A DNA stretch of 64,000 bases from a virus (IMGVR_UViG_3300037280_000066:118061-182060), one strand, 5' to 3'; counted from the first letter of the stretch, positions 28,579 to 61,122 are shown. Translations and numbers: made by a program. The notes: generated by a model from the sequence alone, not told the origin.

Positions 28579-28625
28579 GATTTTTTAAAAAAAAGTCGTT
28601 TTTTCCGTACACGAGTGTTTTGTTA
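28579..28625. repeat. hairpin repeat copy 1 (CTCGTGTACGG-A/T loop-CCGTACACGAG)
   Basis: 11-bp inverted arms around ATTTTTTAAAAAAAAGTCGTTTTTT; repeated at 28690-28732; related GTACGGATTTT..AAAAAA units at 60971-61122. Confidence 0.7.
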
Positions 28626-28689
28626 CCTAGAGCCATTTTAAGCCTTTTTTGACCAAATTTTCGTCCGAATTTCTTACCTCTCGTGTACG

Positions 28690-28732
28690 GATTTTTTAAA
28701 AAAAAGTCGTTTTTTCCGTACATAGATATATA
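28690..28732. repeat. hairpin repeat copy 2
   Basis: Near-identical to 28579-28625 with a shorter stem (TGTACGG/CCGTACA). Confidence 0.7.
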
Positions 28733-28842
28733 TAATACGACAGTCGGTAGAGCCGTATAATATAGATAACACCACAGGTTTAGCCCCCTACGGGTGCTGA
28801 ACACTGCTAACAATCACAAAAACCAAATAATCACGTTTGAAA

Positions 28843-29892
28843 TTAACGGTATATTGCGAACTGCTCAATTTGGTACATGTACTTATCCCTATCTTTAGTG
28901 TTCAGATTATCTCTGTATTGCTCCAATATCTGCATGTAATATTCCATTATGTAAAGATAGTTTTTGTTATGTAGTAAAGATTGATTGCTACTATATGCTA
29001 TCTTCTCAAATCCACCAATACTGTTAATATAATCTCTATACTTATACTGTTCCTCATTTAAATGCAGATATATATTATGATACACCCACTCTATACGTTC
29101 TAATATAGGTATACGGTATCTATTATTCCCACCTCTAATATATTTGTCACCATGAAATACTGCATCTGTATGTATTATTTTAATCAGATTGTATTTGTGT
29201 TCACCTAACTCTTTTATTGTTAAGTTTATAGTTTCTTTATTGATGCCAAGACTTTCTCCTATTTGTCTTTGCGTTGGATAAGCATAATGTTCCCTATAGT
29301 AATGATAGATAGGTTCTCCTGTCTCTGCATCAGGTGTTGTCCATACTCCAAAAAAAGAATAATTAACCAACATCATTGAATAAACTGCCCACTGTGTACT
29401 GCTTAACATTGGTAAGATATTCTTTAAAAATTCTACAGGCATTGCTATGTAACCATTACCCTCTTTTACTGTTGTGTTGAGATAATTACAGTCTGAATTA
29501 TACAATATACATACATTCAATGGTGTGTTGTTCTTAATGTCATTTACCGTACCATCTTCTGATACAATGCATATTACACCCTTGTTATGTAACAATAATA
29601 GTATATCTTTTACTTTTGTTGCCCTGATTCCAGTGAATTCAGTTATCATATTGATTGTTGTGGTTGCATAATAAGCATTATTGCTACTGCTCATAAGCCA
29701 GAATAACACATACCACCCATCTACAGTATATAAATCTCTAATAAAATTCTTATTTATACTGTCATATTTGATTTTCAAGAACTTTTTGTAATCTATCCCC
29801 TTATTATCCATCTCTTTATCCCTGTAAATGTAATTAGGTTCTTTCTTACCATATAAATCCATGATATCCTCCACACTTCCGATTTTGTTCAC
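28843..29892 (-). CDS. HTH-containing protein, paralog of 59836-60864 (candidate replication initiator or regulator)
   Basis: 349 aa; GTG start behind AGGAGGG; aligns over its full length (about one-third identity by eye) with the 342-aa protein encoded in opposite orientation at 59836; HTH-like YAYPTQRQIGESLGINKETINLTIKEL. Confidence 0.7.
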   Translation of the reverse strand: MNKIGSVEDIMDLYGKKEPNYIYRDKEMDNKGIDYKKFLKIKYDSINKNFIRDLYTVDGWYVLFWLMSSSNNAYYATTTINMITEFTGIRATKVKDILLLLHNKGVICIVSEDGTVNDIKNNTPLNVCILYNSDCNYLNTTVKEGNGYIAMPVEFLKNILPMLSSTQWAVYSMMLVNYSFFGVWTTPDAETGEPIYHYYREHYAYPTQRQIGESLGINKETINLTIKELGEHKYNLIKIIHTDAVFHGDKYIRGGNNRYRIPILERIEWVYHNIYLHLNEEQYKYRDYINSIGGFEKIAYSSNQSLLHNKNYLYIMEYYMQILEQYRDNLNTKDRDKYMYQIEQFAIYR

Positions 29893-29953
29893 TTCTTACA
29901 TCCCTCCTATTTCTTGTCTATGTTTGTATATTATACTACACCCTACCTTCTTC

Positions 29954-29984
29954 ATTATACTACCTATATTGTCCATTTGTCAAG
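29954..29984 (-). promoter_or_regulatory. sigma-A-type promoter (TTGACA-18/19-TATAAT) for paralog 1
   Basis: Minus-strand read: TTGACAAATGGACAATATAGGTAGTATAAT. Confidence 0.45.
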
Positions 29985-30128
29985 TTGTTGTTATAAATTT
30001 GCCTTAAATCAACACCATTATTAATAATAACCGATAATATGATGAAAAGTGTTGAAAAATAATGAAAAACTACTAATAATAATCAAAAAACATACAAAAA
30101 TCATTGAAAAATATTTCTTGACTTTCTA

Positions 30129-30157
30129 TTATTGGCATGATATAATTGATTTGTATA
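30129..30157 (+). promoter_or_regulatory. sigma-70-type promoter (TTGACT-17-TATAAT) of the SIR2 cassette
   Basis: TTGACTTTCTATTATTGGCATGATATAAT, then AAGGAGGG RBS. Confidence 0.6.
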
Positions 30158-30179
30158 AGATAACTTAAGGAGGGAAAAG

Positions 30180-31007
30180 ATGTTACCTAGTGAAGCGTTA
30201 AATAAATTTGCTATAAAAGATATACAATCAGTGAGTATTAAAAATATGACTACTGGTGAGACAGTTATGCACTTTGACTACCCTTATGATAAGAATGATA
30301 ACTTGACTGATACTATTATTAAACAAAGTATTAATACATATGTTAGGAGAATTGTTAATGATGGTATTTCTGATACATCTATTCTAAAAGGGGTAGTAGA
30401 GGATGGCTATCATGATAACTATATTGACCAACAAAGAGTTTATAAATTTTCTACTAATGATAGTAATAGAAAGTTTGCTATTGCTATCCCTATACCTCAC
30501 AGCTTCTCTCCCCATATTAGAAATACCTTTGGTGAGATTATGGTAAATGCAGAGAGATATAATATTCCTACATTTAAATCTAGAATGCAAGAGGAAGAAT
30601 ATAAACAAAATAACTATAAAATAATTACTGATTATATTAAGTTTCAACAAAAATGTGAAGAGGGAATGTCACAACTTAGAAATAAACCCATACCTCCTTT
30701 TCCTATACCTCTTGATAATGTTATTATTCATGAGAGGTTTGAATTACCTAAAGTACTTAATAACATATTGCCTAAGTGTAAGTTCTGTGGCAAGAGACAT
30801 TTCTTCTGGATGAATGGTTACAAAAATAATATTGATGAAACTTGCTTATGTAAGAAATGTTGTGTATCATATGGTATCACTGGCAGTAAACAATATAAAG
30901 AAAATAGATTCTATGCCATTGAGAAAATTAGACAACATGTGAAAGACCATGTAAAAGATGATTTTCCTAGCAGTAAACTAATTAATTTTGAAGAGGATGG
31001 AGAATAA
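30180..31007 (+). CDS. hypothetical protein with C-terminal Cys cluster (cassette gene 1)
   Basis: 275 aa; AAGGAGGG RBS; CKFCGKRH...CLCKKCC. Confidence 0.65.
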   Translation: MLPSEALNKFAIKDIQSVSIKNMTTGETVMHFDYPYDKNDNLTDTIIKQSINTYVRRIVNDGISDTSILKGVVEDGYHDNYIDQQRVYKFSTNDSNRKFAIAIPIPHSFSPHIRNTFGEIMVNAERYNIPTFKSRMQEEEYKQNNYKIITDYIKFQQKCEEGMSQLRNKPIPPFPIPLDNVIIHERFELPKVLNNILPKCKFCGKRHFFWMNGYKNNIDETCLCKKCCVSYGITGSKQYKENRFYAIEKIRQHVKDHVKDDFPSSKLINFEEDGE

Positions 31008-31008
31008 A

Positions 31009-31335
31009 ATGGATGCCAAACAGTTAAGTGAATTACAAGAAAAGTTAAAGGAAGCAGAAAAGATAAAAGGCATAATTAATAAGATTCAACAAGTGAAAGA
31101 GATTTACACTAAGAGAGATTTAGATGTAGGTAATATACAACTTACATATGATGTTTCTGAATCATCAGGTTGGGGCAGTGATGAATATGAAAAAGATGTT
31201 TCTCATTTATTTAACTTCAATGCTACACAACTTGGCATAAGTCAACAAGAATTCACTGAGTTATATAAAACAGTTATAATGCTCACATTGAAAGAATTTG
31301 AAAAAAGATTGATTGCTTACTATGATACTATTTAA
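31009..31335 (+). CDS. hypothetical coiled-coil protein (cassette gene 2)
   Basis: Track ORF trimmed to ATG 31009 (MDAKQLSELQEK), 6 nt after GGAG; immediately after the stop of gene 1. Confidence 0.55.
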   Translation: MDAKQLSELQEKLKEAEKIKGIINKIQQVKEIYTKRDLDVGNIQLTYDVSESSGWGSDEYEKDVSHLFNFNATQLGISQQEFTELYKTVIMLTLKEFEKRLIAYYDTI

Positions 31336-31365
31336 GATAGGATGGAGAAAGGGAAGGGATAAGAA

Positions 31366-32037
31366 ATGAAAACTGGATACAGTGGTATGACTAAATCAGA
31401 AACTAGAGAGTGGAGAAATAACCTTACATATAAAGAACAATTACAGTTTGATATGGACAACATAGATACAGACTCAGAGCCATTACCTCAACACCACAGA
31501 CTGATATGTTTAACAGGGGCAGGTATTAGTAAGGAATCTGGAATTAATACTTTTGAAGAATTCCCTGAGTTGAGAGATAAACTCCATAGACATTATGCTT
31601 ATACTCATAAGGAAGATTATGAGAAAACTATTCAAGAATTCATGAAGATGATAGAAGGAAAAGAACCAAACTCTGCTCACTATGCTATGGCTCAATCTCC
31701 TTTTCAGCAAGTACCAATCATTACCCAAAATGTTGATGGACTCCATCAATTGGCAGGGAGTGAAAATGTTATAGAACTACATGGTAGACTGCCTGATACC
31801 ATAGTCCTTTATGGAGACTCAGCCCCCATGTATCAAGTTGCTATTGATTGTGTTAAAGACCTTAAGTATAATGATTCATACTTTGTTATTGTGGGAACTT
31901 CATTTACAACAACCATTGCTTCTGACTTACTGAAAATTGCTAAACAGAAAAAAGCTAAAGTATTTGTGATTAATGATAACGCAGGTGAGAGAGTACCAAA
32001 AATATTAAGTAACATTAGGCATGAATTGGGATGGTAG
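31366..32037 (+). CDS. SIR2-like (sirtuin-fold) NAD-binding protein, minimal form without Zn module
   Basis: 223 aa; LTGAGISKESGINTF, ITQNVDGLH and VIELHG motifs; no CxxC..CxxC insertion between the last two. Confidence 0.7.
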   Translation: MKTGYSGMTKSETREWRNNLTYKEQLQFDMDNIDTDSEPLPQHHRLICLTGAGISKESGINTFEEFPELRDKLHRHYAYTHKEDYEKTIQEFMKMIEGKEPNSAHYAMAQSPFQQVPIITQNVDGLHQLAGSENVIELHGRLPDTIVLYGDSAPMYQVAIDCVKDLKYNDSYFVIVGTSFTTTIASDLLKIAKQKKAKVFVINDNAGERVPKILSNIRHELGW

Positions 32038-32039
32038 TG

Positions 32040-32335
32040 AATATAATAAAAGGGTAGGTGAAGTGGGTATGGTATGGGTGTTAGCGTTAGTAGGGGCTGT
32101 TAGTGTTGTGGGTGCATTGAGTTACTATGGGTTGCTAGATGTTTGTGACTTGATTGAAGCATTGTGTGATGTGCTGAGTGAAATTGATTTTGATTAATGG
32201 TTGGAGGATGGAGTTAGGTAGGTGAAGTTTTTATGTGGTATGTTTTATTGTTTGTGCTTTTATTGTTTGATGAATAGGTAAGTGGTAAGTAGGGGCATGA
32301 TTTTTCAGGGCTAGAAATGGAAGTACCATGGTGGG
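32040..32335 (+). other. C-depleted (G+T+A) strand-skewed segment
   Basis: About 300 nt with only a few C on the plus strand; mirror counterpart (G-depleted) at 36520-36840. Confidence 0.6.
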
Positions 32336-32340
32336 GCGTT

Positions 32341-32572
32341 GGGAAATTATGTCACCTAATTATGTAAACCAGGGGCTACCATATTATGTAAACAATTTTC
32401 TTCCATATTATGTAAACCAAATATTATGTAAACAATTTCCATAAAATTATGTCAACTTTATTATGTAAACTTTATCCATTTATTATGTAACCCATATTAT
32501 GTAAACTAAAAAATAGACAAAAAAAAGAGGTATTATGTCACCCCTTTTAATTTTATTATGTCAAGTATTATG
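32341..32572 (+). repeat. iteron cluster 1: about 11 direct copies of ATTATGTAAAC (variants GTCAAC/GTCACC)
   Basis: Copies at about 32345, 32361, 32385, 32409, 32425, 32447, 32462, 32483, 32497, 32533 and 32556 with irregular 4-25 nt spacers. Confidence 0.8.
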
Positions 32573-32789
32573 GTAAATTATTTATGAAATCAAATATTTC
32601 TGTATAATGTTTTAATCTGTTAATATCATCCAAAAATAGATGTTTTTTCCTTCTCTTTTCAGCTTCCTTTAATTTGTTTTCTATTTCCTCTATCTGTATT
32701 AAAAGGTAATTTTTAACAGTGTTAATAGTTGCCATATATTGTAAACCTCCATTGTAAATTATTGTTAATAGTAGAATGTCAATAGCTAA

Positions 32790-33683
32790 TTAATGAATTT
32801 TACATAAATGGATTTTACCTTTATTAGTGTAGCAATTACGGCACTTCTTACACTTGCCAGCACAATTGACTATATCGTCAACACTTAAATTATGTTTACT
32901 AATAAATGTTAATACATCATCATAATTAGAATACGTTAAATAGATGTTAACATTTCCCTTTTTTAATAGGTCTTTTGGTATCTCATAACTACATAATGCA
33001 TCGAATGAAAGTTGTAAAGTAAAGTTTTTTGGTAACTTCTTTATGTCTTCAAACAATTCAAATTGTTTTGTATAGCTGTAAAATGTAACATTCTTATTAT
33101 CTTTAATTACTTTTAACCATTGGTTTAAATACTCTTTATTAAAGAAGTCCCCTTCTGTATGAATTCGTATTAAGTCGATATCATCGTGTAATATTTGCGT
33201 GTTTATTCTGGTAAAAAATTTGTTGCTATCTGTCAAGTATGAAAGTAAAACATTAAACCGACTTGACATATTATTTTTATAAAATTTGGACTTTTCACAG
33301 TAACAATATTTAGAGCATACCGAACAACGTTCTTTATGGCAGATATTGTTATTTTTGGTAAAATCTGATAATAGTTGAATCTCACTATTAACGTTGTCAT
33401 TAGTTAACATAAATTCATTGAATGCAGTAATACTGTTAATATTTGGAATAAAGAAGTAATAAGATTCCATTTTTTTATTCATTCCATTTTTTAGGATATC
33501 AAGTTTAGGATTATATTTCATTAACATAATTTCTTTACTTAATTTGTCTACTAATACACTTTGTTTTTGTTCTTCTGTTTTGGCAATGTATCCAGTTGTT
33601 ACCTTCTTTGTTACTACCTTTGTTGTTACTGTTTTTGTTGTTACTACCTTTGTTGTTTTAGTTGACATTGTTTTAGTTGACAT
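32790..33683 (-). CDS. Cys-rich protein with N-terminal T/K/V repeats (putative Fe-S or Zn protein)
   Basis: 297 aa; GAAGGAG RBS; MSTKT x2 then TKVVTTKTVTTKVVTKKVTT; clusters CHKERCSVCSKYCYC and CAGKCKKCRNC. Confidence 0.6.
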   Translation of the reverse strand: MSTKTMSTKTTKVVTTKTVTTKVVTKKVTTGYIAKTEEQKQSVLVDKLSKEIMLMKYNPKLDILKNGMNKKMESYYFFIPNINSITAFNEFMLTNDNVNSEIQLLSDFTKNNNICHKERCSVCSKYCYCEKSKFYKNNMSSRFNVLLSYLTDSNKFFTRINTQILHDDIDLIRIHTEGDFFNKEYLNQWLKVIKDNKNVTFYSYTKQFELFEDIKKLPKNFTLQLSFDALCSYEIPKDLLKKGNVNIYLTYSNYDDVLTFISKHNLSVDDIVNCAGKCKKCRNCYTNKGKIHLCKIH

Positions 33684-33773
33684 AATATCTCCTTCTGGGT
33701 AAACCTGTTACCCTTGCCACGTTGGGCATTATTTTTTATTTTATGTTAATGTTATATTGTTACTTCTTTATGT

Positions 33774-34307
33774 TTACCAACAACACCTTTGCAAGTTGGC
33801 ACGTTTGGCACGTTCACGAATTGCGTTATAAGAATAATGATTTTCCCATACACTGGAATTTAATCCATAATCAATAATTACATAATTTCCCTTTTTATTA
33901 AGTCCCCAACTTCTAGCACATTTTATGTCACCCTCTAATAAATCATAGTTGGTTTTCATATCCTGTAAAAAATCGGTAAAATATCTTTCAATTTCCTTTT
34001 TTGTGAGATTTGTTTCATTATCAACATTGAATGCAACATAATTTTTTATTGCGTTGATACCTTTGACCTTTTCGCAATGTTCACATATAACATAAGTGTA
34101 ACATGATGATATTTCAATTACTGGGTTCAAATATTTGCTTTCACCTGATAACGTGTATTCGGTTTGGTTTTGGTCATAACCTTTATTGTTAAACGCTACT
34201 TTACAAACTAAACCAGATTTTAAAAGATATACTTTTCTAGATGTTCCCTTTCCTATCAATAACCCTTCTTTGATTTCATCAACGATATTATCCAAATTAT
34301 AACCCAT
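33774..34307 (-). CDS. small protein-kinase-like protein
   Basis: Start at the second ATG (MGYNLDN) behind AAAGGAG; glycine-rich loop IGKGTSRKVY plus VCKV lysine; YVIIDYG DFG-like motif. Confidence 0.5.
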   Translation of the reverse strand: MGYNLDNIVDEIKEGLLIGKGTSRKVYLLKSGLVCKVAFNNKGYDQNQTEYTLSGESKYLNPVIEISSCYTYVICEHCEKVKGINAIKNYVAFNVDNETNLTKKEIERYFTDFLQDMKTNYDLLEGDIKCARSWGLNKKGNYVIIDYGLNSSVWENHYSYNAIRERAKRANLQRCCW

Positions 34308-34362
34308 TGTTTTATTCTCCTTTGTATGTTGCACCTAGCAACGTTTATTATTGTTTAACTTG

Positions 34363-34425
34363 TTACCCTCTATATATCGACAAACTTTTTAAATACCTTA
34401 ATACTTTTTTTAAAAATTATTCACT
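34363..34425 (-). promoter_or_regulatory. upstream element copy 1 (ATATATCGACAAACTT...AATACTTTTTT...) for the kinase-like gene
   Basis: About 60-nt motif repeated at 34935-35000 upstream of the methyltransferase gene; no TTGACA/TATAAT on the minus strand. Confidence 0.45.
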
Positions 34426-34429
34426 ATTT

Positions 34430-34912
34430 TTATAAAATTAAATAACCCCCATTTATTAAGCCCTTTTGTATTTTTGCAGTTGGGAAAAATTGTAAATATT
34501 CCTTTGTTAATTCGTTTCTTTGATAGCAATCTTTTTTACTTTGTTTTCCTTTGTTGGTTTTGTCCCCTTCATAGACTTGTACAATATAGGGAACGTTAAA
34601 ACTTGTTATCAGGTGGGCAATGTCTTTTATTGTGTCGGTGGAATCAATAACATTTAAAACATTATTACAAATAATCAAAGAAGGTTCACAATGTAAAGCC
34701 CTTTGATTGTCTTCATTGGTTCGATTAAATTTGTCATAAATGAATAAATCAATGTTGTATTCCTGTTTTAAAAAGTCTTTTAAATTGTCGAATTTTCCCC
34801 CTCCAATGTCGAGAACCTTTGAACCCTGAAAAGCATAAAAAGGAATTTTTTTCGTTGATGCAGGTAACTTGTTTTTGTTTATTGATGTTGTGGCACTTGT
34901 TAATATTTGCAT
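34430..34912 (-). CDS. SAM-dependent methyltransferase (small)
   Basis: 160 aa; motif I VLDIGGGKF; GGAGGG RBS. Confidence 0.65.
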   Translation of the reverse strand: MQILTSATTSINKNKLPASTKKIPFYAFQGSKVLDIGGGKFDNLKDFLKQEYNIDLFIYDKFNRTNEDNQRALHCEPSLIICNNVLNVIDSTDTIKDIAHLITSFNVPYIVQVYEGDKTNKGKQSKKDCYQRNELTKEYLQFFPTAKIQKGLINGGYLIL

Positions 34913-34934
34913 TGTTTAACCCTCCATATAATAA

Positions 34935-35000
34935 TTTTTTTGTTCTCTTAATATATCGGCAAACTTAATAAATACATTAATACTTTTTAAAAAATATTCA
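34935..35000 (-). promoter_or_regulatory. upstream element copy 2 (ATATATCGGCAAACTT...AATACTTTTTAAAAAA)
   Basis: Shares about 45 of 60 nt with 34363-34425. Confidence 0.45.
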
Positions 35001-35077
35001 TGTTTCTAAAATATTTTTTAGTATTCCATATACTTATTATTAACTAATATAATATAATTATGTTAACCAATAATTCC

Positions 35078-35232: not shown

Positions 35233-35369
35233 CTTTATTTTTTCAACTTTTTAAATTTTATACATGATTTTAATATTTATTTTTTCATTTATTAGTAGAG
35301 AAATAATATACATTTTTTCCCTATCATGATATAATGATTTATAAAATTTTATAGTGAGGTGTTTTTTAT

Positions 35370-36214: not shown

Positions 36215-36445
36215 AGTTATTATGTAAACTGATAAGTGTAGAGGGATTATGTAAACTCATTATGTTAAGTTATTATGTAAAGTGATTATGTCAACTCATT
36301 ATGGAAATTTTTTATGTCAACCCCTGGCTAGGTGGCTCATAGTGCGAATTCTATGTCTTATTTACAGCAACTACAAAAACAAGCATGAGGTAAAATGGAT
36401 TCCCTACGTTTTGAAGAGGGATTATGTAAATTAAAATCCTATGTT
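36215..36445 (+). repeat. iteron cluster 2: about 7 copies of ATTATGTAAAC-type repeats plus 2 copies of TATGTYWTATTTACAGCAA
   Basis: Copies at about 36219, 36248, 36263, 36275, 36288, 36316 and 36422; secondary repeat at 36352 and 36437. Confidence 0.75.
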
Positions 36446-44560: not shown

Positions 44561-44611
44561 AAGGATAACAACTAACAACAAATTTTAAATTAAAAAAGGA
44601 GAATGATTATT

Positions 44612-45763
44612 ATGTTTAAGAAGACACAGCTTTCAATGAATTATTTAGGTTTGGTTAAGAAGGTAGTATCAGGAGCAGTAAGGTTTGATTTGGAAATACA
44701 AAGAAGAGCAGTATGGACAGAGAAACAGAAGCAAGACCTGATTGACTCATTAATTTTTGATTTCCCTGTTCCTCCATTGTACTTTGTAGATTTGAAAGAT
44801 GATTTCAAATGGGCATTAGATGGACAGCAAAGGTCAAGAGCTATGACAGAATTCTTCCAAGGCAAGTTTGTTTTGAGTGATGAACTTGACAACTATGTTG
44901 ATGATGATGGAGCAGAATACATGGTGGCAGGATTGAGCTATGCAGAACTTCCACAAACTGTACAAACTAAGTTGAATAGTACAAACGTTAACACATACAC
45001 ATTCTCTGATATATCAGAAGACGAAATAACCATTATGTTCCAAAGATTGAATGCAGGAACAGCCTTTAAGAAGATTGAGCTTATCAGAATTGACATGCCT
45101 ACAGCGTTTACAGCATTCATTAATGAAGTATCAAGAGATTCCTTCTTTGCTGATAAGGTGGCTATAAGTGACAAAGCAAGGGTACATTTTTCAGACCAAG
45201 AACTTATCCTTCAAACACTTATTATGTTCTCTAATGCTGATTCAGGCTTTACAGGTAAAGAGATTCAAGATTTTGTATCATATTACACATTGGAAGATGA
45301 TGTAAAGGACAGATTCAGAGAAGTTTTAACTTACCTTAACAAAGCATTTGTATTGAGTGAGAAGCTACTTAAAAAGACTGCTGTGCCTGTAATATTCAAG
45401 GTAGCAGAAATAGCAATAATTGAAAAAGTACAGCCAGAAGAGTTCTATACATGGACAGTTGACTTCTTCAAAGCTCAAAAAACTGGTGGCGAATATGGAA
45501 GAACAGTAAGTGCAGGAAGTGCAAGAAAAGAAAATGTAAAGAGAAGACTTGAAGTTTTACGCAATGCATTTACAAAGGAAGTTCCTGAACTCAAAAAGAT
45601 TCAAGTAATTAGAGAAAAGGCAGAAGCAAAAGCAAGAGCAGAAGCCATCAAGAACCCTCCTGTAGTAGCACCTGTAGTATCTGACATAATAACAGACCTT
45701 GCAGACGATAAGGACGTAATATTGCCAGTAGTAGCAGGACAAACTCAACAGGCACAGGTGTAA
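44612..45763 (+). CDS. DUF262/ParB-like nuclease-domain protein
   Basis: Start ATG 44612 (MFKKTQ), 10 nt after AAGGAG; LEIQRRAVWTEKQKQDLIDSLIFDFPVPPLYF...LDGQQRSRAM matches the DUF262 (GmrSD N-terminal/ParB-like) signature. Confidence 0.6.
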   Translation: MFKKTQLSMNYLGLVKKVVSGAVRFDLEIQRRAVWTEKQKQDLIDSLIFDFPVPPLYFVDLKDDFKWALDGQQRSRAMTEFFQGKFVLSDELDNYVDDDGAEYMVAGLSYAELPQTVQTKLNSTNVNTYTFSDISEDEITIMFQRLNAGTAFKKIELIRIDMPTAFTAFINEVSRDSFFADKVAISDKARVHFSDQELILQTLIMFSNADSGFTGKEIQDFVSYYTLEDDVKDRFREVLTYLNKAFVLSEKLLKKTAVPVIFKVAEIAIIEKVQPEEFYTWTVDFFKAQKTGGEYGRTVSAGSARKENVKRRLEVLRNAFTKEVPELKKIQVIREKAEAKARAEAIKNPPVVAPVVSDIITDLADDKDVILPVVAGQTQQAQV

Positions 45764-54829: not shown

Positions 54830-54840
54830 GAGGAAGAAAG

Positions 54841-55191: not shown

Positions 55192-55585
55192 GCTTAGAGT
55201 TAGAACAGGCTGTAGCTTAATGGAATGTAAAAGGGCTATAAATATATGTCAAGGTGATGTTGCTGTGGCATATGAGTTTGTTAAAATGAAAGGTCAGGCA
55301 GTATTTAGACGTAGAACAGATGGTCAACAATGGACAGATGATGATTACTTAGCAGAAGCTACTAAAATTGCTAAACCTTACCTTGACTACTCTAAATTTA
55401 TATGTAAGTGTAGTTCTAATGGTGCTAATGACTGTGAGGAAAACATAGAAAAAGTATGTTGTATGTCCTGTACTTCATATAAGTCATGTGTAGAAAAAAG
55501 ATGGACTTGCGTTCACCTTGACAAAAAAGATTATCCTCAGAACTGCAAAGAATTATATCTTAAGAATAGGGAGGTAACAGAATAA
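55160..55585 (+). CDS. EF-Ts-N-terminal (UBA-like) domain plus Cys-rich region; +1-frame ORF probably expressed by recoding from 54841
   Basis: KINELRVRTGCSLMECKRAIN resembles the EF-Ts N-terminal motif ([20 protein letters not shown]); its own ATG lacks an RBS; overlaps the upstream gene by 32 nt. Confidence 0.45.
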   Translation: MRNQIYKKINELRVRTGCSLMECKRAINICQGDVAVAYEFVKMKGQAVFRRRTDGQQWTDDDYLAEATKIAKPYLDYSKFICKCSSNGANDCEENIEKVCCMSCTSYKSCVEKRWTCVHLDKKDYPQNCKELYLKNREVTE

Positions 55586-56310
55586 TGTGTGTTACAGTTA
55601 ATGGCGTAGAATGTGAATATGAGCAAAGTGTTTTATCTCAGAACTCAGTTTGTCTTCATTGTATTGATTGTCATTTGTTTACACCTAAGACACCAGTAAA
55701 GATTAAGAAATTTCCACCAAGACCAGTAGGTGAAATTAATCAACAAGTCATAAAGGTGTCAGGGAAACCATTTAAGTCTGGCAATACTGTTAATACCATT
55801 AAAGGATATATGGAACATCCTCAAATACCTAATGAAAAAGCGTATACTTTTTATGAAGATGATTCATATGTAGAGGTAAGAAGATGTTTAATACTAAGTA
55901 CTGCCAAAACTTTATCATTCAATGTTGAAGATAAAGACCTTGCATATCTAAAAAATATGATGAAAGAAATTGATGATTTAAAGCAATTAGTTAGTAAACA
56001 AATTATGAAACTATGTGAGTTAGGCAGTTTTCAGGAAAGGTTTGACAACTGGTTAGAGTTTGCAATTAAAGAAGACCTTCCTTGGCTTCAATCAGCAGGA
56101 GAAAAAGTTAGATACTTATTAGTAGAAGAACGTGATTACAATAGGTGTGAAACTATTGATATCACAACAATTATGGATTGGATTTATGATGATGAATCTT
56201 ACTGTACATGGGACGAAGAAGGTAAGGTATCCACATTTACACAAAAAGGTATTGATATTGCATCAGACCTTATGGAATATAATCTTGGTTCAATAACTAT
56301 TGATTGGTAA
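55585..56310 (+). CDS. hypothetical early protein
   Basis: 241 aa; start overlaps the upstream stop (TAATG). Confidence 0.55.
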   Translation: MCVTVNGVECEYEQSVLSQNSVCLHCIDCHLFTPKTPVKIKKFPPRPVGEINQQVIKVSGKPFKSGNTVNTIKGYMEHPQIPNEKAYTFYEDDSYVEVRRCLILSTAKTLSFNVEDKDLAYLKNMMKEIDDLKQLVSKQIMKLCELGSFQERFDNWLEFAIKEDLPWLQSAGEKVRYLLVEERDYNRCETIDITTIMDWIYDDESYCTWDEEGKVSTFTQKGIDIASDLMEYNLGSITIDW

Positions 56311-56369
56311 TTCACTATATAACAGAAAAAGACAAATCATTACTGGTTTGTCTTTTTCTGTTATATAGT
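56311..56369 (+). terminator. 25-bp perfect inverted repeat (bidirectional terminator or site)
   Basis: TTCACTATATAACAGAAAAAGACAAA-tcattactgg-TTTGTCTTTTTCTGTTATATAGTGAA. Confidence 0.6.
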
Positions 56370-56401
56370 GAATAATATTAATAAAAACGATAATAATAAT
56401 A

Positions 56402-56431
56402 TTGACAACACTATCTTACCTGTGATACAAT
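56402..56431 (+). promoter_or_regulatory. early promoter (TTGACA-18-TGATACAAT)
   Basis: AATAATATTGACAACACTATCTTACCTGTGATACAAT. Confidence 0.55.
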
Positions 56432-56472
56432 GTATTTAGGTTCACAAAACAAATTCACAGGAGGTTATGGTT

Positions 56473-56616
56473 ATGGCAAAGAAAGTAGCATATTGTGTAG
56501 AATGTGGAAAGGTTGATAAGTGTTTAGAAGATAAGAAGTGTCAACTGCCAAACTGTAAGACAGGTAAAGCCAAGAAGTGTTTGTCAAATAATGACTGTAA
56601 AAAATGTGTTCATTAA
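56473..56616 (+). CDS. 47-aa Cys/Lys-rich peptide
   Basis: Not in track; AGGAGG 8 nt upstream; CVECGKVDKC...CQLPNCKTGKAKKC...CKKC. Confidence 0.45.
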   Translation: MAKKVAYCVECGKVDKCLEDKKCQLPNCKTGKAKKCLSNNDCKKCVH

Positions 56617-56627
56617 GGAGGAAGCTA

Positions 56628-56756
56628 TGAAAAATTTAAGATTTAACAAGAAAAAGTTTTTTGATAACGTAGGATTTCCTTTGATTGTAGGTGTCTTGTT
56701 GGCTTTAGTTTTATGGTATATTGCTGAACATCCTGAAATATATTTGTTATATTAAG
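56628..56756 (+). CDS. 42-aa membrane peptide
   Basis: Not in track; TAAGGAGG RBS. Confidence 0.4.
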
Positions 56757-56767
56757 GAAGGTGTAGG

Positions 56768-56914
56768 ATGAATAAGTGGTGGGTTATATTCTTAGCAGAT
56801 GGAACTTACATACAAGTACAGGCAGAAGATAAGGATGAAGCCAAAAGGCTTGCTTGGGAAAATTTTAATATCCCATGGTATAACATGGTTAAGTTTGAAC
56901 TATACTATAAATAG
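56768..56914 (+). CDS. 48-aa hypothetical protein
   Basis: Not in track; AAGGAAGGTG RBS. Confidence 0.4.
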   Translation: MNKWWVIFLADGTYIQVQAEDKDEAKRLAWENFNIPWYNMVKFELYYK

Positions 56915-56925
56915 GAGGTTAATAT

Positions 56926-57066
56926 ATGTTAAGGTGGAAAGTAATTTTAGATAATGGAAGTGAGTACATAGTATCTGCAACTGATAAGTCAGGGGCAATA
57001 CATGAAGCAATAAGAGTATATCATATTCTTTTAAAAGAAGTTGATAAAGTAAATCAAATAACTTAG
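56926..57066 (+). CDS. 46-aa hypothetical protein
   Basis: Not in track; TAGGAGG RBS. Confidence 0.4.
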   Translation: MLRWKVILDNGSEYIVSATDKSGAIHEAIRVYHILLKEVDKVNQIT

Positions 57067-57090
57067 GAGTTGAAAGGGGAAAGGGTAAGT

Positions 57091-57537
57091 ATGCAAAACA
57101 GCAATTTGTTAGAAGTATTAACAAAGTATAAACAAACAGATATGAAGGTGATGAAAACAAATCTAAAAAATGCATGTAAGGGACTGCTTCAAGAGTATGG
57201 CACTAGACAAGATATTGCTGATTTAGTGGGAATGGAGATTAATTCTTTTCAGAGTTGTTTAAATGTCTCTCATGCATCAGTATTAACATTTGAAAACTTA
57301 GTTAAAATGTGTGGGGTTTTGAACTTAGACATTAATGATATGTTTAAAGACACACAAGTTATAACTAAAAGCACCAGAGCAAAAAAGATATGGACTGTTG
57401 AAAACAAAAGGGATTTACTGGATAGGTTTAGTAATGGTGGTGTTGATTTAGTACAGAAGAAATATGACTTAAGCAAAAAAACAATACTGCATTACTATAA
57501 TTTATTCAGTAGGGAGCTTGTAAAAAATAATATGTGA
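57091..57537 (+). CDS. XRE-family HTH protein
   Basis: Trimmed to ATG 57091 (MQNSNLL); TRQDIADLVGMEINSFQSCLN helix-turn-helix. Confidence 0.55.
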   Translation: MQNSNLLEVLTKYKQTDMKVMKTNLKNACKGLLQEYGTRQDIADLVGMEINSFQSCLNVSHASVLTFENLVKMCGVLNLDINDMFKDTQVITKSTRAKKIWTVENKRDLLDRFSNGGVDLVQKKYDLSKKTILHYYNLFSRELVKNNM

Positions 57538-57544
57538 AATAATA

Positions 57545-57573
57545 TTGACAACATCATCTATAAGTGATAAGAT
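57545..57573 (+). promoter_or_regulatory. early promoter (TTGACA-17-TGATAAGAT)
   Basis: AATATTGACAACATCATCTATAAGTGATAAGAT. Confidence 0.6.
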
Positions 57574-57611
57574 ATAAGAGTGGTCAAACAAATTAGATGA
57601 TGGAGGTCAAT

Positions 57612-58124
57612 ATGACAATTACCCAATTGACAAGAAAATGTAAAGAGTTTGCACTAAAGAATTGGAACATGGAATTCAACTTACCTGTAGAGATAAGTAC
57701 TAAGATGTTCAAAAAACTAGGATATTATCAATACAGAAAGGATGTAAATGTTGGAATCAAAATGGTATTTGCCCAATTACTTTTTTCAGGATATTACAAA
57801 GAGGAAACTATTGATAGCGTAATACATCATGAACTTACACATTGGGCATTACATATTATGGAGAAACCTTTTAAAGATAAACATCCAGTATTTGAAGCTG
57901 AATTAAGAAGGGTTGGTGGTTCATCAACAAAGACAATAAAAATTGCAGGTAAGTTACATAATATAGTGTGTTGCAGATGTGGTGAAACAATTGCTTTTAC
58001 AACAGAAACAGGAGCAAGAAACATGTTAAAAAGAATTGATAAAGATGTTACAATTTGTTGTAGGGCTAGATATAAACACGCAGGAATTGTTGAAGTAGAA
58101 GATACTTATGAGTTAAGGAGGTAA
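57612..58124 (+). CDS. SprT-like zinc metalloprotease-domain protein
   Basis: Trimmed to ATG 57612 (MTITQLTRK), 6 nt after GGAGG; HHELTHWALH HExxH motif; C-terminal CCRCGE...CCRARYKH zinc ribbon. Confidence 0.65.
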   Translation: MTITQLTRKCKEFALKNWNMEFNLPVEISTKMFKKLGYYQYRKDVNVGIKMVFAQLLFSGYYKEETIDSVIHHELTHWALHIMEKPFKDKHPVFEAELRRVGGSSTKTIKIAGKLHNIVCCRCGETIAFTTETGARNMLKRIDKDVTICCRARYKHAGIVEVEDTYELRR

Positions 58125-58129
58125 TGGCT

Positions 58130-58285
58130 ATGTTTACAATTTACGCTAAAGTTCAACAGGATGATGGAAGTTATGCAGATGTTGTTAGAAGTATCCCTGC
58201 AAGCTCAAAGGAAGAAGCAAAGAATGTTTTTGCTACACAGTTCATAGGCAGAAAGTATTCAATTTACAATGTTGTTAAGGTATAG
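58130..58285 (+). CDS. 51-aa hypothetical protein
   Basis: Not in track; AAGGAGG 8 nt upstream. Confidence 0.4.
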   Translation: MFTIYAKVQQDDGSYADVVRSIPASSKEEAKNVFATQFIGRKYSIYNVVKV

Positions 58286-58294
58286 GAGGTAGTC

Positions 58295-58441
58295 ATGATT
58301 CAATGCAATTTAACAGAGTCAGAAATTGAACAGATAATTGATGCATTGAAAAATAATAAGGAGTCTTCACAATATAATAGAACACTTCTTAATTATTTTG
58401 AGAACAAACTTAAAGCTTTAAAGTGTTATAAGAGTGAATAG
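58295..58441 (+). CDS. 48-aa hypothetical protein
   Basis: Not in track; TAGGAGG RBS. Confidence 0.4.
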   Translation: MIQCNLTESEIEQIIDALKNNKESSQYNRTLLNYFENKLKALKCYKSE

Positions 58442-58450
58442 GAGGTAACC

Positions 58451-58639
58451 ATGGTAAGAAAGAAAAATGGTAAGAAGAAGCTCAAAAAGAAGGTACTATC
58501 CTCATATGAGATATCGAAGACAGTCAGAGGTAGTTGGCATGGAGTAGTGCCTGTTACAAAGGTGGAGCAAGATGAAAGACTTGACACTACAAAACGTAGA
58601 CAGGCTGAGAAAAAGCTAATACAGCACACACAAGAATAA
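58451..58639 (+). CDS. small basic protein
   Basis: 62 aa; TAGGAGG RBS; KKNGKKKLKKK. Confidence 0.5.
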   Translation: MVRKKNGKKKLKKKVLSSYEISKTVRGSWHGVVPVTKVEQDERLDTTKRRQAEKKLIQHTQE

Positions 58640-58657
58640 TCGAGAGGTGAATGTAAA

Positions 58658-59038
58658 ATGATACCAAATCTTAGACAGCTTATACCACAGAAAAGGGTTA
58701 GTAGTGATAATATGTTTATCAGTGTGTTATCTACTGCCTTTACCACATTTGTTGTTGTTATAATTATAGGTGCTATATTTGTATGGGCAGGAATGACAGA
58801 TATTTATAATAAACAACACATGCAAACTCAAACACTTAACATAACATATCAACATGACAATAATAAAGAAAATTGGCAAAAGTTTCCTGATATCAAATGT
58901 GAATATCAGGGAAAAATCTATACAACATGTATATTTCATGGTTATATGGACTTATCTAAGAACAAGGCAAAGTTCAACATTTATTCTGATACTGAAAGAG
59001 GTGTATATAAAGTAGAATTTGGCAGTTATGAAAACTAA
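58658..59038 (+). CDS. membrane protein (single TM)
   Basis: 126 aa; GAGAGGTGA RBS. Confidence 0.55.
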   Translation: MIPNLRQLIPQKRVSSDNMFISVLSTAFTTFVVVIIIGAIFVWAGMTDIYNKQHMQTQTLNITYQHDNNKENWQKFPDIKCEYQGKIYTTCIFHGYMDLSKNKAKFNIYSDTERGVYKVEFGSYEN

Positions 59039-59052
59039 GGAGATGATTAGTT

Positions 59053-59328
59053 ATGATGATATTAGTGATAATAGGTGTTTGTGATGGGAAGATGATAAGA
59101 CCAAGAACATTTACAGATGAAAATGTGGCTATGACTGAATTAAGAAACATGTATGCTAAGAAATTAGCTGAATATGTTGATATGGTAAAAGATAATGATA
59201 GTTATATCCAACATTCAGGAATAACTGATGATAGAGCTTTCATTGGTTCAGGATTTACCACTATTGGAGAAGGATTTACTAGGGAGCATTACTATGAAAT
59301 ACAATTACATACTACCATGGTAAGATAG
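59053..59328 (+). CDS. hypothetical early protein
   Basis: 91 aa; AAGGAG 9 nt upstream. Confidence 0.5.
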   Translation: MMILVIIGVCDGKMIRPRTFTDENVAMTELRNMYAKKLAEYVDMVKDNDSYIQHSGITDDRAFIGSGFTTIGEGFTREHYYEIQLHTTMVR

Positions 59329-59338
59329 GAGCAGGATT

Positions 59339-59632
59339 ATGAGTGTAAAGGTTAAGATTGAAGTATTAACAGCAGACATAAAGAAACAAATCAATAATGG
59401 TATTGACCAGTTATTTGAGAAAAAGATAAAAGAATTAGAGATAGATTCCTGTCCTCCTGATGTATTTTTTGAGATTCTAAAAGACAAAGGTATTGATATT
59501 GATAGTGATGAATGGGACACAAATGGATGGCAGTATGACTACTGGCAAAATTTCACTCACAATGATATTAAATATCAGGTAAGTGGTGGTGGATACTATG
59601 GAAAATTATCCCTAACAGAATATAGAGATTAA
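59339..59632 (+). CDS. hypothetical early protein
   Basis: 97 aa; TAGGAGCAGG RBS. Confidence 0.5.
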   Translation: MSVKVKIEVLTADIKKQINNGIDQLFEKKIKELEIDSCPPDVFFEILKDKGIDIDSDEWDTNGWQYDYWQNFTHNDIKYQVSGGGYYGKLSLTEYRD

Positions 59633-59635
59633 AAC

Positions 59636-59664
59636 TTGACAAACTATTCAAGGTGTGGTAAGAT
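59636..59664 (+). promoter_or_regulatory. promoter (TTGACA-17-TGGTAAGAT) for a short non-coding transcript
   Basis: AAACTTGACAAACTATTCAAGGTGTGGTAAGAT. Confidence 0.55.
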
Positions 59665-59665
59665 G

Positions 59666-59773
59666 AAAATGTACATTAATTCGTGTACAAACTTCTTTGA
59701 GTAATAAAACTATTTTTCTTATTTATTTTATGTCAAATCCCTTGTCTATGTAGGTAGGCAAGGTTCTTTTTTT
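59666..59773 (+). ncRNA. candidate small RNA (promoter-to-terminator unit without ORF)
   Basis: About 105 nt between the 59636 promoter +1 and the CCTTG...CAAGG-TTCTTTTTTT terminator (59740-59773); no RBS or ORF; contains GTACATTAATTCGTGTAC. Confidence 0.4.
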
Positions 59774-59776
59774 AAC

Positions 59777-59805
59777 TTGACAGTAAAAAATTGATATGGT
59801 ATGAT
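59777..59805 (+). promoter_or_regulatory. promoter (TTGACA-17-TGGTATGAT) for paralog 2
   Basis: ACTTGACAGTAAAAAATTGATATGGTATGAT. Confidence 0.55.
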
Positions 59806-59835
59806 AAATATAATCTGTACTAGAAGGAGTTATTT

Positions 59836-60864
59836 ATGAAGGAATTCAAATCACTACAAGACATTCATACATATTTTAGCCATAAATCAGCTAAATACAT
59901 ATTCAAAGACAAAGTGTTTGATTCTAGAGGGATTACCTATAGTCAATTTGTCAAGTTAAAATATGACAGCATCAACAATTCGTTGGTCAGGGACTACTAT
60001 ACTTTCGATGGATGGTATATTATGTTCTGGCTTATGACAAAAACAAATAATCCATATTTCATTACAACAAATATCAATTTAATATCGGATAGTGTTAACA
60101 TAAGACCTGCCAAGATAAAAGAGGTTTTACTGCATTTACACTCTAATCATATCATTTCTATTGAACATAATGAGGAAGATATTAAGGGTTCTACAACACT
60201 TAATATTGCCATCATCTACAATACAAACTATAGTGAGGAAGAACAAGGCTACATCTCTTTACCTTTAGAGTTTATTAGGATTATCCTACCAGACTTAAAG
60301 CCTAATGAATGGGCTATATATTGTTATGTGTTAGTAAGGTATTCATATTTTACAGTATCTAATGAAGAAGATGATTCAGGTAACATAATATATAAATATA
60401 TGCGTACTCATTATGCTTTTCCTACATATGACCAGATAGCAGATAAATTAAGAATGTCAAAAGAAACTATTAGTCAGGCTTTCAATGCTTTAATAGATAG
60501 TAAATATAAGCTCTTAGATAAGGTTACATCTGATAAGGTGTTTACAACGCTTGATAATGGTAAATCGAGTTATGCTTCTGGTGGTAATAATAGATATAAA
60601 ATACCTATTATGGAGCATATTGAGTATGTTTATCATAACATATATAAGCCTATTACAGATAAGAAACGTCAAGAATATGCTGATATAAAACAAATCGGTT
60701 TTGAGAATATAGCAAGAAGCCCACAACAAAGGATATTAACAGGAAAGAAGTATTTGTACATATTAGAGTATTATGAAGACCTGATGTTGAAATATGAGAA
60801 ATGTCTACAGACCAAGGATGTTGAAGGTTATAATTATTTGAAGGATGAAAGAATCACGTTTTAA
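59836..60864 (+). CDS. HTH-containing protein, paralog of 28843-29892
   Basis: 342 aa; GAAGGAG RBS; full-length alignable with the leftward 349-aa protein; HTH-like YAFPTYDQIADKLRMSKETISQAFNAL. Confidence 0.7.
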   Translation: MKEFKSLQDIHTYFSHKSAKYIFKDKVFDSRGITYSQFVKLKYDSINNSLVRDYYTFDGWYIMFWLMTKTNNPYFITTNINLISDSVNIRPAKIKEVLLHLHSNHIISIEHNEEDIKGSTTLNIAIIYNTNYSEEEQGYISLPLEFIRIILPDLKPNEWAIYCYVLVRYSYFTVSNEEDDSGNIIYKYMRTHYAFPTYDQIADKLRMSKETISQAFNALIDSKYKLLDKVTSDKVFTTLDNGKSSYASGGNNRYKIPIMEHIEYVYHNIYKPITDKKRQEYADIKQIGFENIARSPQQRILTGKKYLYILEYYEDLMLKYEKCLQTKDVEGYNYLKDERITF

Positions 60865-60970
60865 TTCCTCTCAGGTGTCCCACACCTAAAACTGTTGAGT
60901 TATGATTTCTTTAAAACTGTTGTATTATATATATTTATGGAAGTTGCAATATAATATCTTTATAGTACTC

Positions 60971-61122
60971 CTTTCGTCAGTTTTTTGAAAAATCCGTACC
61001 GTTGACTACCTCACGTTTTTTGCAAAAACCGTACTGTTGACTCCCACTTTTTACTTTTTGAGTCGAGTTTTAAAACCTGAAAACACAGTCTAGGAAATGA
61101 TTTTTCAATAGTACGGATTTTG
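60971..61122. repeat. repeat group TTTTTTGAAAAATCCGTACCGTTGACT / TTTTTTGCAAAAACCGTACTGTTGACT / inverted TAGTACGGATTTTGCAAAAAACG
   Basis: Two direct 27-30 nt copies (60971-61000, 61005-61034) and one inverted copy (61100-61122); share the GTACGG-ATTTTT-AAAAAA core with the 28579-28732 repeats. Confidence 0.65.

What the first reader, a model, noticed from the sequence alone, without database searches (positions are those of the whole stretch)
28579..61122. 30-kb early region bracketed by inverted, diverged paralogous HTH-protein genes, each followed by related GTACGG-A/T hairpin repeats
Genes 28843-29892 (minus strand) and 59836-60864 (plus strand) encode full-length alignable paralogs. Their 3' ends face outward. 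Each is followed within 100-250 bp by copies of a GTACGGATTTTT..AAAAAA(CG) unit: two long hairpins at 28579-28732, and two direct plus one inverted copy at 60971-61122. The pair encloses the SIR2 cassette, the iteron island and all small early genes. Possible roles include duplicated initiator/origin modules, recombination or inversion boundaries of a mobile early-region cassette, or terminal-repeat-associated functions.
Basis: seen in the sequence. Interest (0 to 1): 0.65.

Follow-up and report, generated by a model that had tools for sequence, protein, structure and literature searches.

The report
Two phage initiator-like genes with origin-like repeats
A 182-kb phage of a low-GC bacterium carries two diverged copies of a self-contained cassette, made of a DNA-binding protein shaped like a plasmid replication initiator followed by its own array of repeated binding sites; these are most likely two replication-origin modules, not the borders of an invertible or mobile block.

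Summary
Genes 28843-29892 (-) and 59836-60864 (+) are paralogs (43% identity, E 5e-97). GTACGGWTTTT occurs exactly five times in 64 kb, all just downstream of these two genes.

The "bracket" reading does not hold. Each gene plus its downstream repeats is one copy of a cassette found across a small phage-only protein family (about 65 clusters in 1.8 billion proteins). In every locus I inspected in detail, including members only 22-30% identical, the gene is followed by 2-3 short AT-rich repeats. These are followed by 20-45 nt units in direct and inverted orientation, whose GC-rich core differs between lineages.

A high-confidence model (pLDDT 94) shows two winged-helix domains. Its best two-domain structural matches are iteron-binding plasmid initiators (Pi, RepE, RctB), although the scores are modest.

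In relatives the cassette usually sits like copy A: at a strand switch, followed by a helicase and a YonO-like RNA polymerase.

No long inverted repeat, recombinase, terminator signature or assembly variant supports inversion or mobility.

Best reading: two initiator-plus-origin modules sharing one iteron core (confidence about 0.55). This is a new variant of a known kind, of moderate interest.

The parts
28843..29892 (-). Gene A: 349-aa tandem winged-helix protein, the copy in the position usual for the family
   Evidence: ORF. 43% identical to B. HTH_36 hit E 1.6e-6. It is the first gene of the leftward arm, where the GC skew flips. Relatives L007, L009 and L035 sit in the same position.
29954..29983 (-). 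Consensus sigma-70-type promoter of gene A (TTGACA-18-TATAAT)
   Evidence: 12 of 12 match.
28766..28783 (-). Short AT-rich repeat 1 after A (CTAAACCTGTGGTGTTAT)
   Evidence: Read. Aligns with B's TAAAACTGTTGAGTTAT.
28721..28744 (-). Short AT-rich repeat 2 after A (ACTGTCGTATTATATATATCTATG), ending in a TA tract
   Evidence: 22 of 24 identical to 60916-60939. The same motif occurs in L035.
28679..28722 (-). Iteron-like unit A1 (gene-proximal): GTACGGAAAAAACGACTTTTTTTTAAAAAATCCGTAC
   Evidence: Perfect 44-nt direct repeat. Carries the GTACGGATTTT motif.
28568..28615 (-). Iteron-like unit A2, with a 12-bp palindromic extension
   Evidence: Hairpin -19 kcal/mol, z -4.7.
28501..28529 (-). Consensus promoter of the next gene, the UvrD-type helicase at 26459-28432
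   Evidence: UvrD domains E 2e-55.
59836..60864 (+). Gene B: 342-aa paralog of A
   Evidence: ORF.. DnaD_N 29.6 bits and HTH_36. AlphaFold2 model pLDDT 93.9.
59777..59805 (+). Promoter of gene B (TTGACA-17-TATGAT, with TG extension), preceded by a terminator-like hairpin at 59740-59763
60887..60939 (+). Two short AT-rich repeats after B (period 25 nt), the second ending in a TA tract
60978..61045 (+). Two direct iteron-like units B1 and B2 (TTTTTTG(C)AAAAA(T)CCGTAC-YGTTGAC), 35 nt apart
61105..61132 (-). Inverted iteron-like unit B3, 64 nt from B2
   Evidence: 93% complementary to 61013-61040.
61246..61273 (+). Consensus promoter of the next transcription unit (66-aa ORF, then the SPFH/Band 7 gene)

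Best explanation
A and B are two copies of a self-contained cassette. Each has a host-type promoter, a tandem winged-helix DNA-binding protein of a phage-only family, and an array of the protein's own binding sites immediately 3' of the gene.

The array has two parts. First come 2-3 short AT-rich repeats that are similar across the family and end in a TA tract. Then come 2-3 longer units, each a T-run/A-run followed by a lineage-specific GC-rich core, arranged in direct and inverted orientation.

Proposed mechanism:
- The cassette is a replication initiator plus its cognate origin (inferred).
- The protein binds the iteron-like units through its two winged-helix domains, as Pi and RepE do, and distorts or opens the adjacent AT-rich repeats (inferred).
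- It then recruits a helicase, which in the usual genomic position is encoded by the next gene or one close by (inferred).

This phage has two such modules 32 kb apart in opposite orientation. They share the core AAWCCGTAC but have different flanks: ACGAGA at A and YRTTGA at B. They are therefore either two origins, or one origin plus a second array that cross-talks with it by titration or pairing.

Shown: the paralogy, the non-random repeats, the conservation of the cassette across the family, the tandem winged-helix fold, and the synteny with a helicase. Inferred: protein binding to the repeats, and origin function.
For: 1. Family and cassette.
- A profile search of 1.84 billion cluster representatives finds only 65 members. 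None were found in 185,579 bacterial or archaeal genomes, in plasmids or in cultured phages.
- Every locus inspected in detail has the same layout downstream of the stop codon. These are L001, L002, L004-L009, L012, L031, L035, L039 and L041, and they include members only 22-30% identical to B (L037 was less clear).
- In the systematic test, most non-redundant loci score above all 30 shuffles for an inverted repeat, a direct repeat or both.
- In eight loci where I read the positions off, the iterons start 116-157 nt after the stop codon. The distance from the last iteron to the next gene varies more (about 50-465 nt). The array is therefore tied to the upstream gene (my reading).

2. The cores change with the protein lineage: CCGTAC (window), GAACTG (L035), GGAGTG (L001), CAGTCA (L002), CAGACCACGG (L012), TTAGGCATAC and TTCGGTGT (IMG/VR clades).

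3. Fold.
- The AlphaFold2 model built on 40 sequences has pLDDT 93.9 and pTM 0.91.
- The top Foldseek PDB hit is also 2nra, followed by many RepE54 and Rep-iteron-DUE complexes.
- The viral structure library returns proteins named replication protein O, replication initiator and replisome organizer, E down to 5e-6.
- Weak sequence hits point the same way: DnaD_N, RepL, Phage_rep_O and PHROG replication-initiation families.

4. Context.
- A sits at the strand switch and GC-skew minimum.
- A is followed by a UvrD helicase. A UvrD-type helicase lies a few genes downstream in L009 and L002, and an SF2 helicase follows directly in L007.

5. Precedent. SaPI origins are iterons immediately 3' of rep, pointing in opposite directions (PMC9371898). 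SPP1 has two distant origins made of repeats (PMC6316719).
Against: - No curated replication-initiator family is matched above its threshold, apart from a marginal DnaD_N hit for B.
- There is no clear DNA-unwinding element. The TA tracts are not the least stable windows in their loci. The spacer between facing units is not AT-rich; it is 29-42% GC, against locus averages of 24-32%.
- DnaA boxes are not enriched.
- Unit spacings of 25, 33, 35 and 41-45 nt are not whole numbers of helical turns.
- A separate iteron-like island (ATTATGTAAAC, 13 copies at 32.4 and 36.3 kb) could be the real origin.
- There is no direct evidence that the protein binds the repeats.
Confidence: 0.55

Rival explanations
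1. A transcription factor with an operator array. The winged-helix protein binds the downstream repeats to activate, repress or insulate the next transcription unit: helicase and RNA polymerase after A, SPFH and Ro60 region after B.
Against: The distance from array to next promoter or gene varies from about 40 to more than 330 nt, while the distance from the stop codon to the array is fixed. The downstream genes differ between loci: helicase, ParB_N, GIY-YIG, Ro60, SPFH. Structural matches that span both domains are replication initiators, not regulators. Arrays of 150-250 bp in two site classes are larger than typical operators.
Confidence: 0.22
2. A partition module. The protein is a centromere-binding protein and the repeats are a centromere, as in a plasmid-prophage.
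For: The first winged-helix domain gives a weak profile hit to TubR (4asn, E 0.004). A ParB_N protein follows the array in L002 and lies close downstream in L035. The YonO-like polymerase has distant relatives in Clostridium botulinum plasmid-prophages.
Against: No ParA, ParM or TubZ NTPase lies next to A, B or the relatives scanned. Neither window copy has a ParB_N neighbour. At about 350 aa with two winged-helix domains and a helical C-terminal domain, the protein is much larger than known centromere-binding proteins.
Confidence: 0.07
3. Boundaries of an invertible, excisable or mobile 30-kb early-region cassette, or terminal-repeat-associated sites.
For: The two cassettes are inverted relative to each other and share a 24-nt element (22 of 24) and the 11-nt GTACGGATTTT core. 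One public contig ends inside the A repeats.
Against: The longest inverted match is 24 nt. No recombinase was found among the neighbours scanned. Plus-strand genes run on past B. The Logan contig is collinear with the window over the full A-B interval: A at 151-1200 and B at 31144-32172, the same 30,993-nt offset. That contig's end is a break in a perfect 44-nt repeat. The cassette occurs as the only detected copy in relatives.
Confidence: 0.04
4. Ordinary intrinsic terminators or chance repeats.
For: The first A unit folds well (-19 kcal/mol, z -4.7). The repeats lie just 3' of genes.
Against: The terminator scan finds none at the units. The loops are 23 nt and no U-run follows on the transcribed strand. 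The second A unit and all B units have no significant fold. The layout recurs family-wide with different sequences. The motif count is far above chance.
Confidence: 0.02

Closest known systems
Iteron-binding plasmid initiators with tandem winged-helix domains (R6K Pi, F RepE, P1 RepA, Vibrio RctB domains 2-3)
   Different: No sequence-level membership. There is an additional N-terminal segment and a roughly 80-aa helical C-terminal domain. Units are spaced 35-45 nt apart, not about 22. There are two classes of repeat. DnaA boxes are not enriched. The family is phage-only.
SaPI (staphylococcal pathogenicity island) rep-ori modules
   Same: Iterons lie immediately downstream of the initiator ORF, with copies pointing in opposite directions, and specificity differs between elements (PMC9371898).
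   Different: SaPI Rep is a self-loading helicase with a C-terminal winged helix; the proteins here have no ATPase domain. The SaPI ori has a central AT-rich region; here the spacer between facing units is not AT-rich.
Bacillus phage SPP1 oriL / oriR with gp38
   Same: One phage genome carries two distant origin-like repeat arrays with similar organisation (PMC6316719).
   Different: SPP1 uses a single initiator for both origins, and oriL lies inside gene 38. Here each array follows its own paralog (43% identical), and the arrays are intergenic.
DnaD-like phage replisome organizers / lambda O-like initiators
   Different: No DnaB_2/DnaD C-terminal domain was detected. The lambda origin lies inside the O gene.

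Membership tests
Iteron-type replication initiators (Pi / RepE / RepA, Pfam Rep_3-like) | Tandem WH1-WH2 winged-helix fold | tested here: met
Iteron-type replication initiators (Pi / RepE / RepA, Pfam Rep_3-like) | Sequence match to a curated initiator family above its threshold | tested here: not met
   Across 40 members only HTH_36 (31), DnaD_N (13), RepL (4) and Phage_rep_O (1) are hit, mostly below the cut-offs. NCBIfam gives nothing with E < 0.01.
Iteron-type replication initiators (Pi / RepE / RepA, Pfam Rep_3-like) | Array of repeated cognate sites (iterons) next to the gene, differing between lineages | tested here: met
Iteron-type replication initiators (Pi / RepE / RepA, Pfam Rep_3-like) | Adjacent AT-rich DNA-unwinding element | tested here: inconclusive
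   TA tracts sit beside the units in the window, L035 and L002. They are not the least stable windows of their loci. The spacers between facing units are not AT-rich.
Iteron-type replication initiators (Pi / RepE / RepA, Pfam Rep_3-like) | Protein binds the repeats and the array supports replication | not testable with these tools
   Needs EMSA or footprinting and an origin-activity assay.
DnaD-like replisome organizer | DnaD_N domain together with a DnaB_2/DnaD C-terminal domain | tested here: not met
   DnaD_N is marginal for B (29.6 against cut-off 27) and below cut-off for A (15.4). No C-terminal DnaB_2 hit in any of 40 members.
SaPI-type rep-ori module | Iterons immediately 3' of the initiator ORF, in opposite orientations | tested here: met
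   The definition comes from PMC9371898.
SaPI-type rep-ori module | The initiator is a helicase (ATPase core plus C-terminal winged helix) | tested here: not met
   No ATPase or helicase domain in Pfam or in the model.
Site-specific inversion or mobile cassette | Recombinase gene, inverted crossover sites at both ends, and alternative orientations | tested here: not met
   No recombinase among the neighbours scanned. The longest inverted match is 24 nt. The Logan contig is collinear with the window. Read-level variants could not be tested.
Intrinsic terminator | Short GC-rich stem, small loop, U-run on the transcribed strand | tested here: not met
Partition centromere plus centromere-binding protein (TubR / ParR type) | Adjacent partition NTPase (TubZ / ParM / ParA) | tested here: not met
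   Neighbours in the window and in eight relative loci show none. The TubR hit is weak (E 0.004).

The most novel reading that the evidence does not exclude
The phage runs a two-initiator system on one shared iteron core. The two paralogs are only 43% identical, yet both arrays keep AAWCCGTAC, while the three closest relatives each use a different core.

The two arrays, 32 kb apart and inverted, could then communicate. They might pair or titrate initiator, as at P1 incA or F incC, or loop as in R6K. That could set the timing or mode of replication. Alternatively the two modules could serve two replicons, plasmid-like maintenance and lytic growth, as repA and repL do in P1.

More broadly, the family would be a previously undescribed class of phage origin cassette that travels as a unit in large phages encoding a YonO-type RNA polymerase.
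Probability: 0.2. Interest if true: 0.6.

Novelty: new variant of a known kind. Interest (0 to 1): 0.42.

Why it matters
Replication origins and initiators are unknown for most large uncultured phages of Firmicutes, including the group that carries YonO-type single-subunit RNA polymerases.

This family offers a compact, recognisable gene-plus-site cassette that predicts where such genomes start replication. It also gives about ten natural protein/site pairs with different cores, which is useful for studying how winged-helix initiators change specificity.

The presence of two diverged initiators with one shared core in a single genome is a direct, testable case of origin cross-talk or dual replicons in a phage.

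If the cassette turns out to be regulatory instead, it is still an unannotated, conserved cis/trans pair at the main strand-switch of these genomes.

Tried and rejected
- DNA (blastn) and protein (tblastn) searches of cultured phages with A, B and the locus found nothing. Plasmids gave nothing, nor did 185,579 prokaryotic genomes.
- A single-protein scan of IMG/VR found nothing. The 40-sequence alignment was too diverse for pattern scanning.
- A second word-indexed protein search with the 40-sequence profile returned only 3 proteins and added nothing.
- The first AlphaFold2 run, on 4 sequences, was unusable (pLDDT 52). The afdb50 fold library was unavailable.
- The profile search against PDB sequences gave only weak single winged-helix hits to MarR and TubR.
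- The 239-aa HTH_36 protein at 22772-23491 is not a third paralog.
- The helix-stability profile did not single out an unwinding element. Spacer GC content and DnaA boxes were uninformative.
- Scanning IMG/VR for the B-type iteron found one chance hit in an unrelated coding region.
- Scans for a second, more divergent family member in the large relative contigs found none, but the patterns were narrow.
- I considered the units as promoters for the phage RNA polymerase. I rejected this because the motif is absent from the structural and late gene region within the window.


Full report
**Setting.** The window is part of a roughly 182-kb, 32% GC phage-like genome; public contigs of 181,836 and 182,060 bp carry the same genes.
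- The genome encodes 26 tRNAs, a YonO-like single-subunit RNA polymerase at 23481-25985, and terminase, portal and virion genes on the minus strand at 1-13 kb.
- GC skew and gene orientation flip at about 30 kb.
- Gene A (28843-29892, -) is the first gene of the leftward arm. Gene B (59836-60864, +) lies 30 kb into the rightward arm, and plus-strand genes continue for at least 10 kb beyond it.

- A and B align end to end at 43% identity, E 5e-97.
- After A lie two perfect 44-nt copies, at 28568-28611 and 28679-28722. Each contains inverted GTACGGA half-sites.
- After B lie two direct units at 60980-61045 and one inverted unit at 61105-61132.
- GTACGGWTTTT matches exactly only at these five places in 64 kb. 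With one mismatch allowed there are 6 hits against 1.28 expected.
- The similarity extends beyond the GTACGG units. Both genes are followed first by two short AT-rich repeats: CTAAACCTGTGGTGTTAT and ACTGTCGTATTATATATATCTATG after A, and TAAAACTGTTGAGTTAT and ACTGTTGTATTATATATATTTATG after B.
- The A region is the best match in the whole window to the B region. The whole unit, gene plus cis region, is therefore duplicated.

**The cassette is a property of a protein family, not of this genome.**
- An exhaustive profile search of 1.84 billion representatives finds 65 members, about 50 of them full length.
- The word-indexed search had found only four.
- None occur in bacterial or archaeal genomes, plasmids or cultured phages.
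- I fetched 30 or more loci from IMG/VR, JGI, ENA and Logan.
- The loci I inspected in detail show the same order after the stop codon, although L037 was less clear. First come 2-3 short AT-rich repeats with a period of 18-33 nt and motifs such as TTGTAGAATT, TGTAGTAAT or CTGTCGTACTAT. Then come 2-3 units of 20-45 nt in direct (35 or 41-46 nt apart) and inverted arrangement, sometimes palindromic or duplicated with a 111-120 nt period as at A.
- This layout holds even for members 22-30% identical to B, such as those in L039 and L041.
- In a systematic test, most non-redundant loci exceeded all 30 shuffles for an inverted repeat, a direct repeat or both.
- The GC-rich core of the long units differs by lineage (CCGTAC, GAACTG, GGAGTG, CAGTCA, CAGACCACGG, TTAGGCATAC, TTCGGTGT), while the short repeats stay similar. 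A protein evolving together with its own binding sites would give this pattern.
- In eight loci where I read the positions off, the array starts 116-157 nt after the stop codon. Its distance to the next gene or promoter varies widely. The array therefore belongs to the upstream gene.

**What the protein looks like.**
- Sequence searches give only helix-turn-helix level hits: HTH_36 in 31 of 40 members, DnaD_N in 13, RepL in 4 and Phage_rep_O in 1. There are also weak PHROG hits to DnaD-like loader and O-like initiator families.
- With a 40-sequence alignment AlphaFold2 gives a confident model, pLDDT 93.9 and pTM 0.91. It has an N-terminal segment, a winged helix at about residues 57-126, a second winged helix at about 144-255 with a long beta-hairpin insert, and a helical C-terminal domain at 257-335.
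- The scores are modest, and single-domain regulators score nearly as well. However, the only matches that span both domains are replication initiators.
- In the viral structure library the best hits (E down to 5e-6) include proteins named replication protein O, replication initiator and replisome organizer.

**Genomic context.**
- A and B each have their own consensus host-type promoter (29983-29954 and 59777-59805). Another consensus promoter follows each array.
- A is followed by a UvrD helicase, a 127-aa protein, the YonO-like polymerase and PhoH.
- In L007 and L035 the family member sits at a strand switch and is followed by homologues of the same genes. L009 also sits at a strand switch. 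It has a UvrD-type helicase three genes downstream.
- An SF2 helicase follows directly in L007, and a UvrD-like gene lies nearby in L002.
- A is thus the copy in the usual position.
- B resembles the L039 member in being followed by a non-coding stretch and a Ro60/TROVE gene. The cassette evidently relocates as a unit.
- In a neighbour-joining tree, A, B, P0003 and P0005 form one subclade at 43-51% mutual identity, with B nearer to P0005 than to A. The two copies are therefore an old duplication or an acquisition, not a recent in-genome copy.
- Both arrays nevertheless keep the same core, whereas P0003, P0004 and P0005 have three other cores. The flanks differ (ACGAGA at A, YRTTGA at B), which argues against recent gene conversion and for selection on a shared core.

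**Interpretation.** The most economical reading is an initiator-plus-origin cassette, present twice. It fits four things:
- the fold;
- the iteron-like, lineage-specific sites;
- the position 3' of the gene, as in SaPI rep-ori (PMC9371898) and the incC and incA arrays of F and P1 (textbook knowledge);
- the neighbouring helicase and the strand-switch location.

SPP1 shows that a phage can have two distant origin arrays (PMC6316719).

**Weaknesses of this reading.**
- No clear unwinding element: the TA tracts are not stability minima and the spacer between facing units is not AT-rich.
- No enrichment of DnaA boxes.
- Modest structural scores.
- No curated initiator-family membership.
- A competing iteron-like island (ATTATGTAAAC x13) at 32.4 and 36.3 kb.

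I put origin function at about 0.55. The weaker claim, that this is a cognate DNA-binding protein with its own site array, I put at about 0.85.

**The bracket idea.** Nothing supports inversion, excision or terminal-repeat roles.
- The longest inverted DNA match between the loci is 24 nt.
- No recombinase was seen nearby.
- The Logan contig is collinear with the window over the whole interval.
- Its end inside the 44-nt unit is an assembly break at a perfect repeat.
- The units are not terminators: large loops, no U-run, and only one of five folds significantly.
- Each large relative contig (146-181 kb) yielded a single family member. Scans for divergent second copies had limited sensitivity.

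**Verdict.** This is a new, phage-only variant of the iteron-initiator theme, of moderate interest. The shared-core, two-paralog arrangement is the part most worth an experiment.

Noticed in passing
window 32359-32506 and 36219-36431: Two arrays of the 11-mer ATTATGTAAAC (8 and 5 copies, same orientation; 25 hits with one mismatch allowed against 5 expected). They flank a three-gene minus-strand cassette (GP88-like 32790-33683, 33774-34334, 34430-34912) set inside the plus-strand early arm. They could be another origin or a regulator's sites.
   Followed up: partly
window 62886-64000 and beyond (L003 13051-16053, about window 62.9-65.9 kb): About 3 kb without ORFs lies upstream of a TROVE/Ro60 + vWA gene. 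It contains two sub-threshold YrlA (Y RNA-like) matches (34 and 29 bits, E 5e-5 and 1.6e-3) and three tRNA-like elements. Relative L039 has a similar non-coding stretch with promoters and repeated elements before its TROVE/Ro60 gene. This looks like a phage-encoded Ro60/Y-RNA module.
   Followed up: partly
window 23481-25985 (-): An 834-aa protein matches Pfam RdRP (E 2e-15). It is 26% identical to SPbeta YonO and 36-39% identical to proteins of Thomasclavelia phages TR-TP1 and TR-TP2 and of a human-gut phage contig. It is a YonO-type single-subunit RNA polymerase, and it recurs a few kb downstream of the family member in two relatives (L007, L035).
   Followed up: partly
window 15729-21100 (-): A block of 26 tRNA genes covering most amino acids lies between PhoH and an SbcD-like exonuclease.
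   Followed up: no
window 22772-23491 (-): A second, unrelated HTH_36 protein (239 aa) lies next to the RNA polymerase. It gives weak PHROG 'replication initiation protein' hits and is not a paralog of A or B.
   Followed up: partly
window 31366-32037 (+) and 44603-45763 (+): A SIR2-family protein and a GmrSD_N (type IV restriction-like) protein are encoded in the early arm. The GmrSD_N gene is 55% identical to one in relative L039. These may be defence or counter-defence genes.
   Followed up: no
window 56310-56373: A near-perfect 30-nt palindrome (97% complementary, 4-nt loop) lies just after the gene ending at 56310. It is the longest inverted repeat in the 28-62 kb region and is probably a terminator.
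   Followed up: no
L036 end / window about 28693: The Logan contig SRR11847931_1200889 starts inside the 44-nt repeat, and the window continues to its left. The genome therefore assembles as a circle or a circular permutation.
   Followed up: yes
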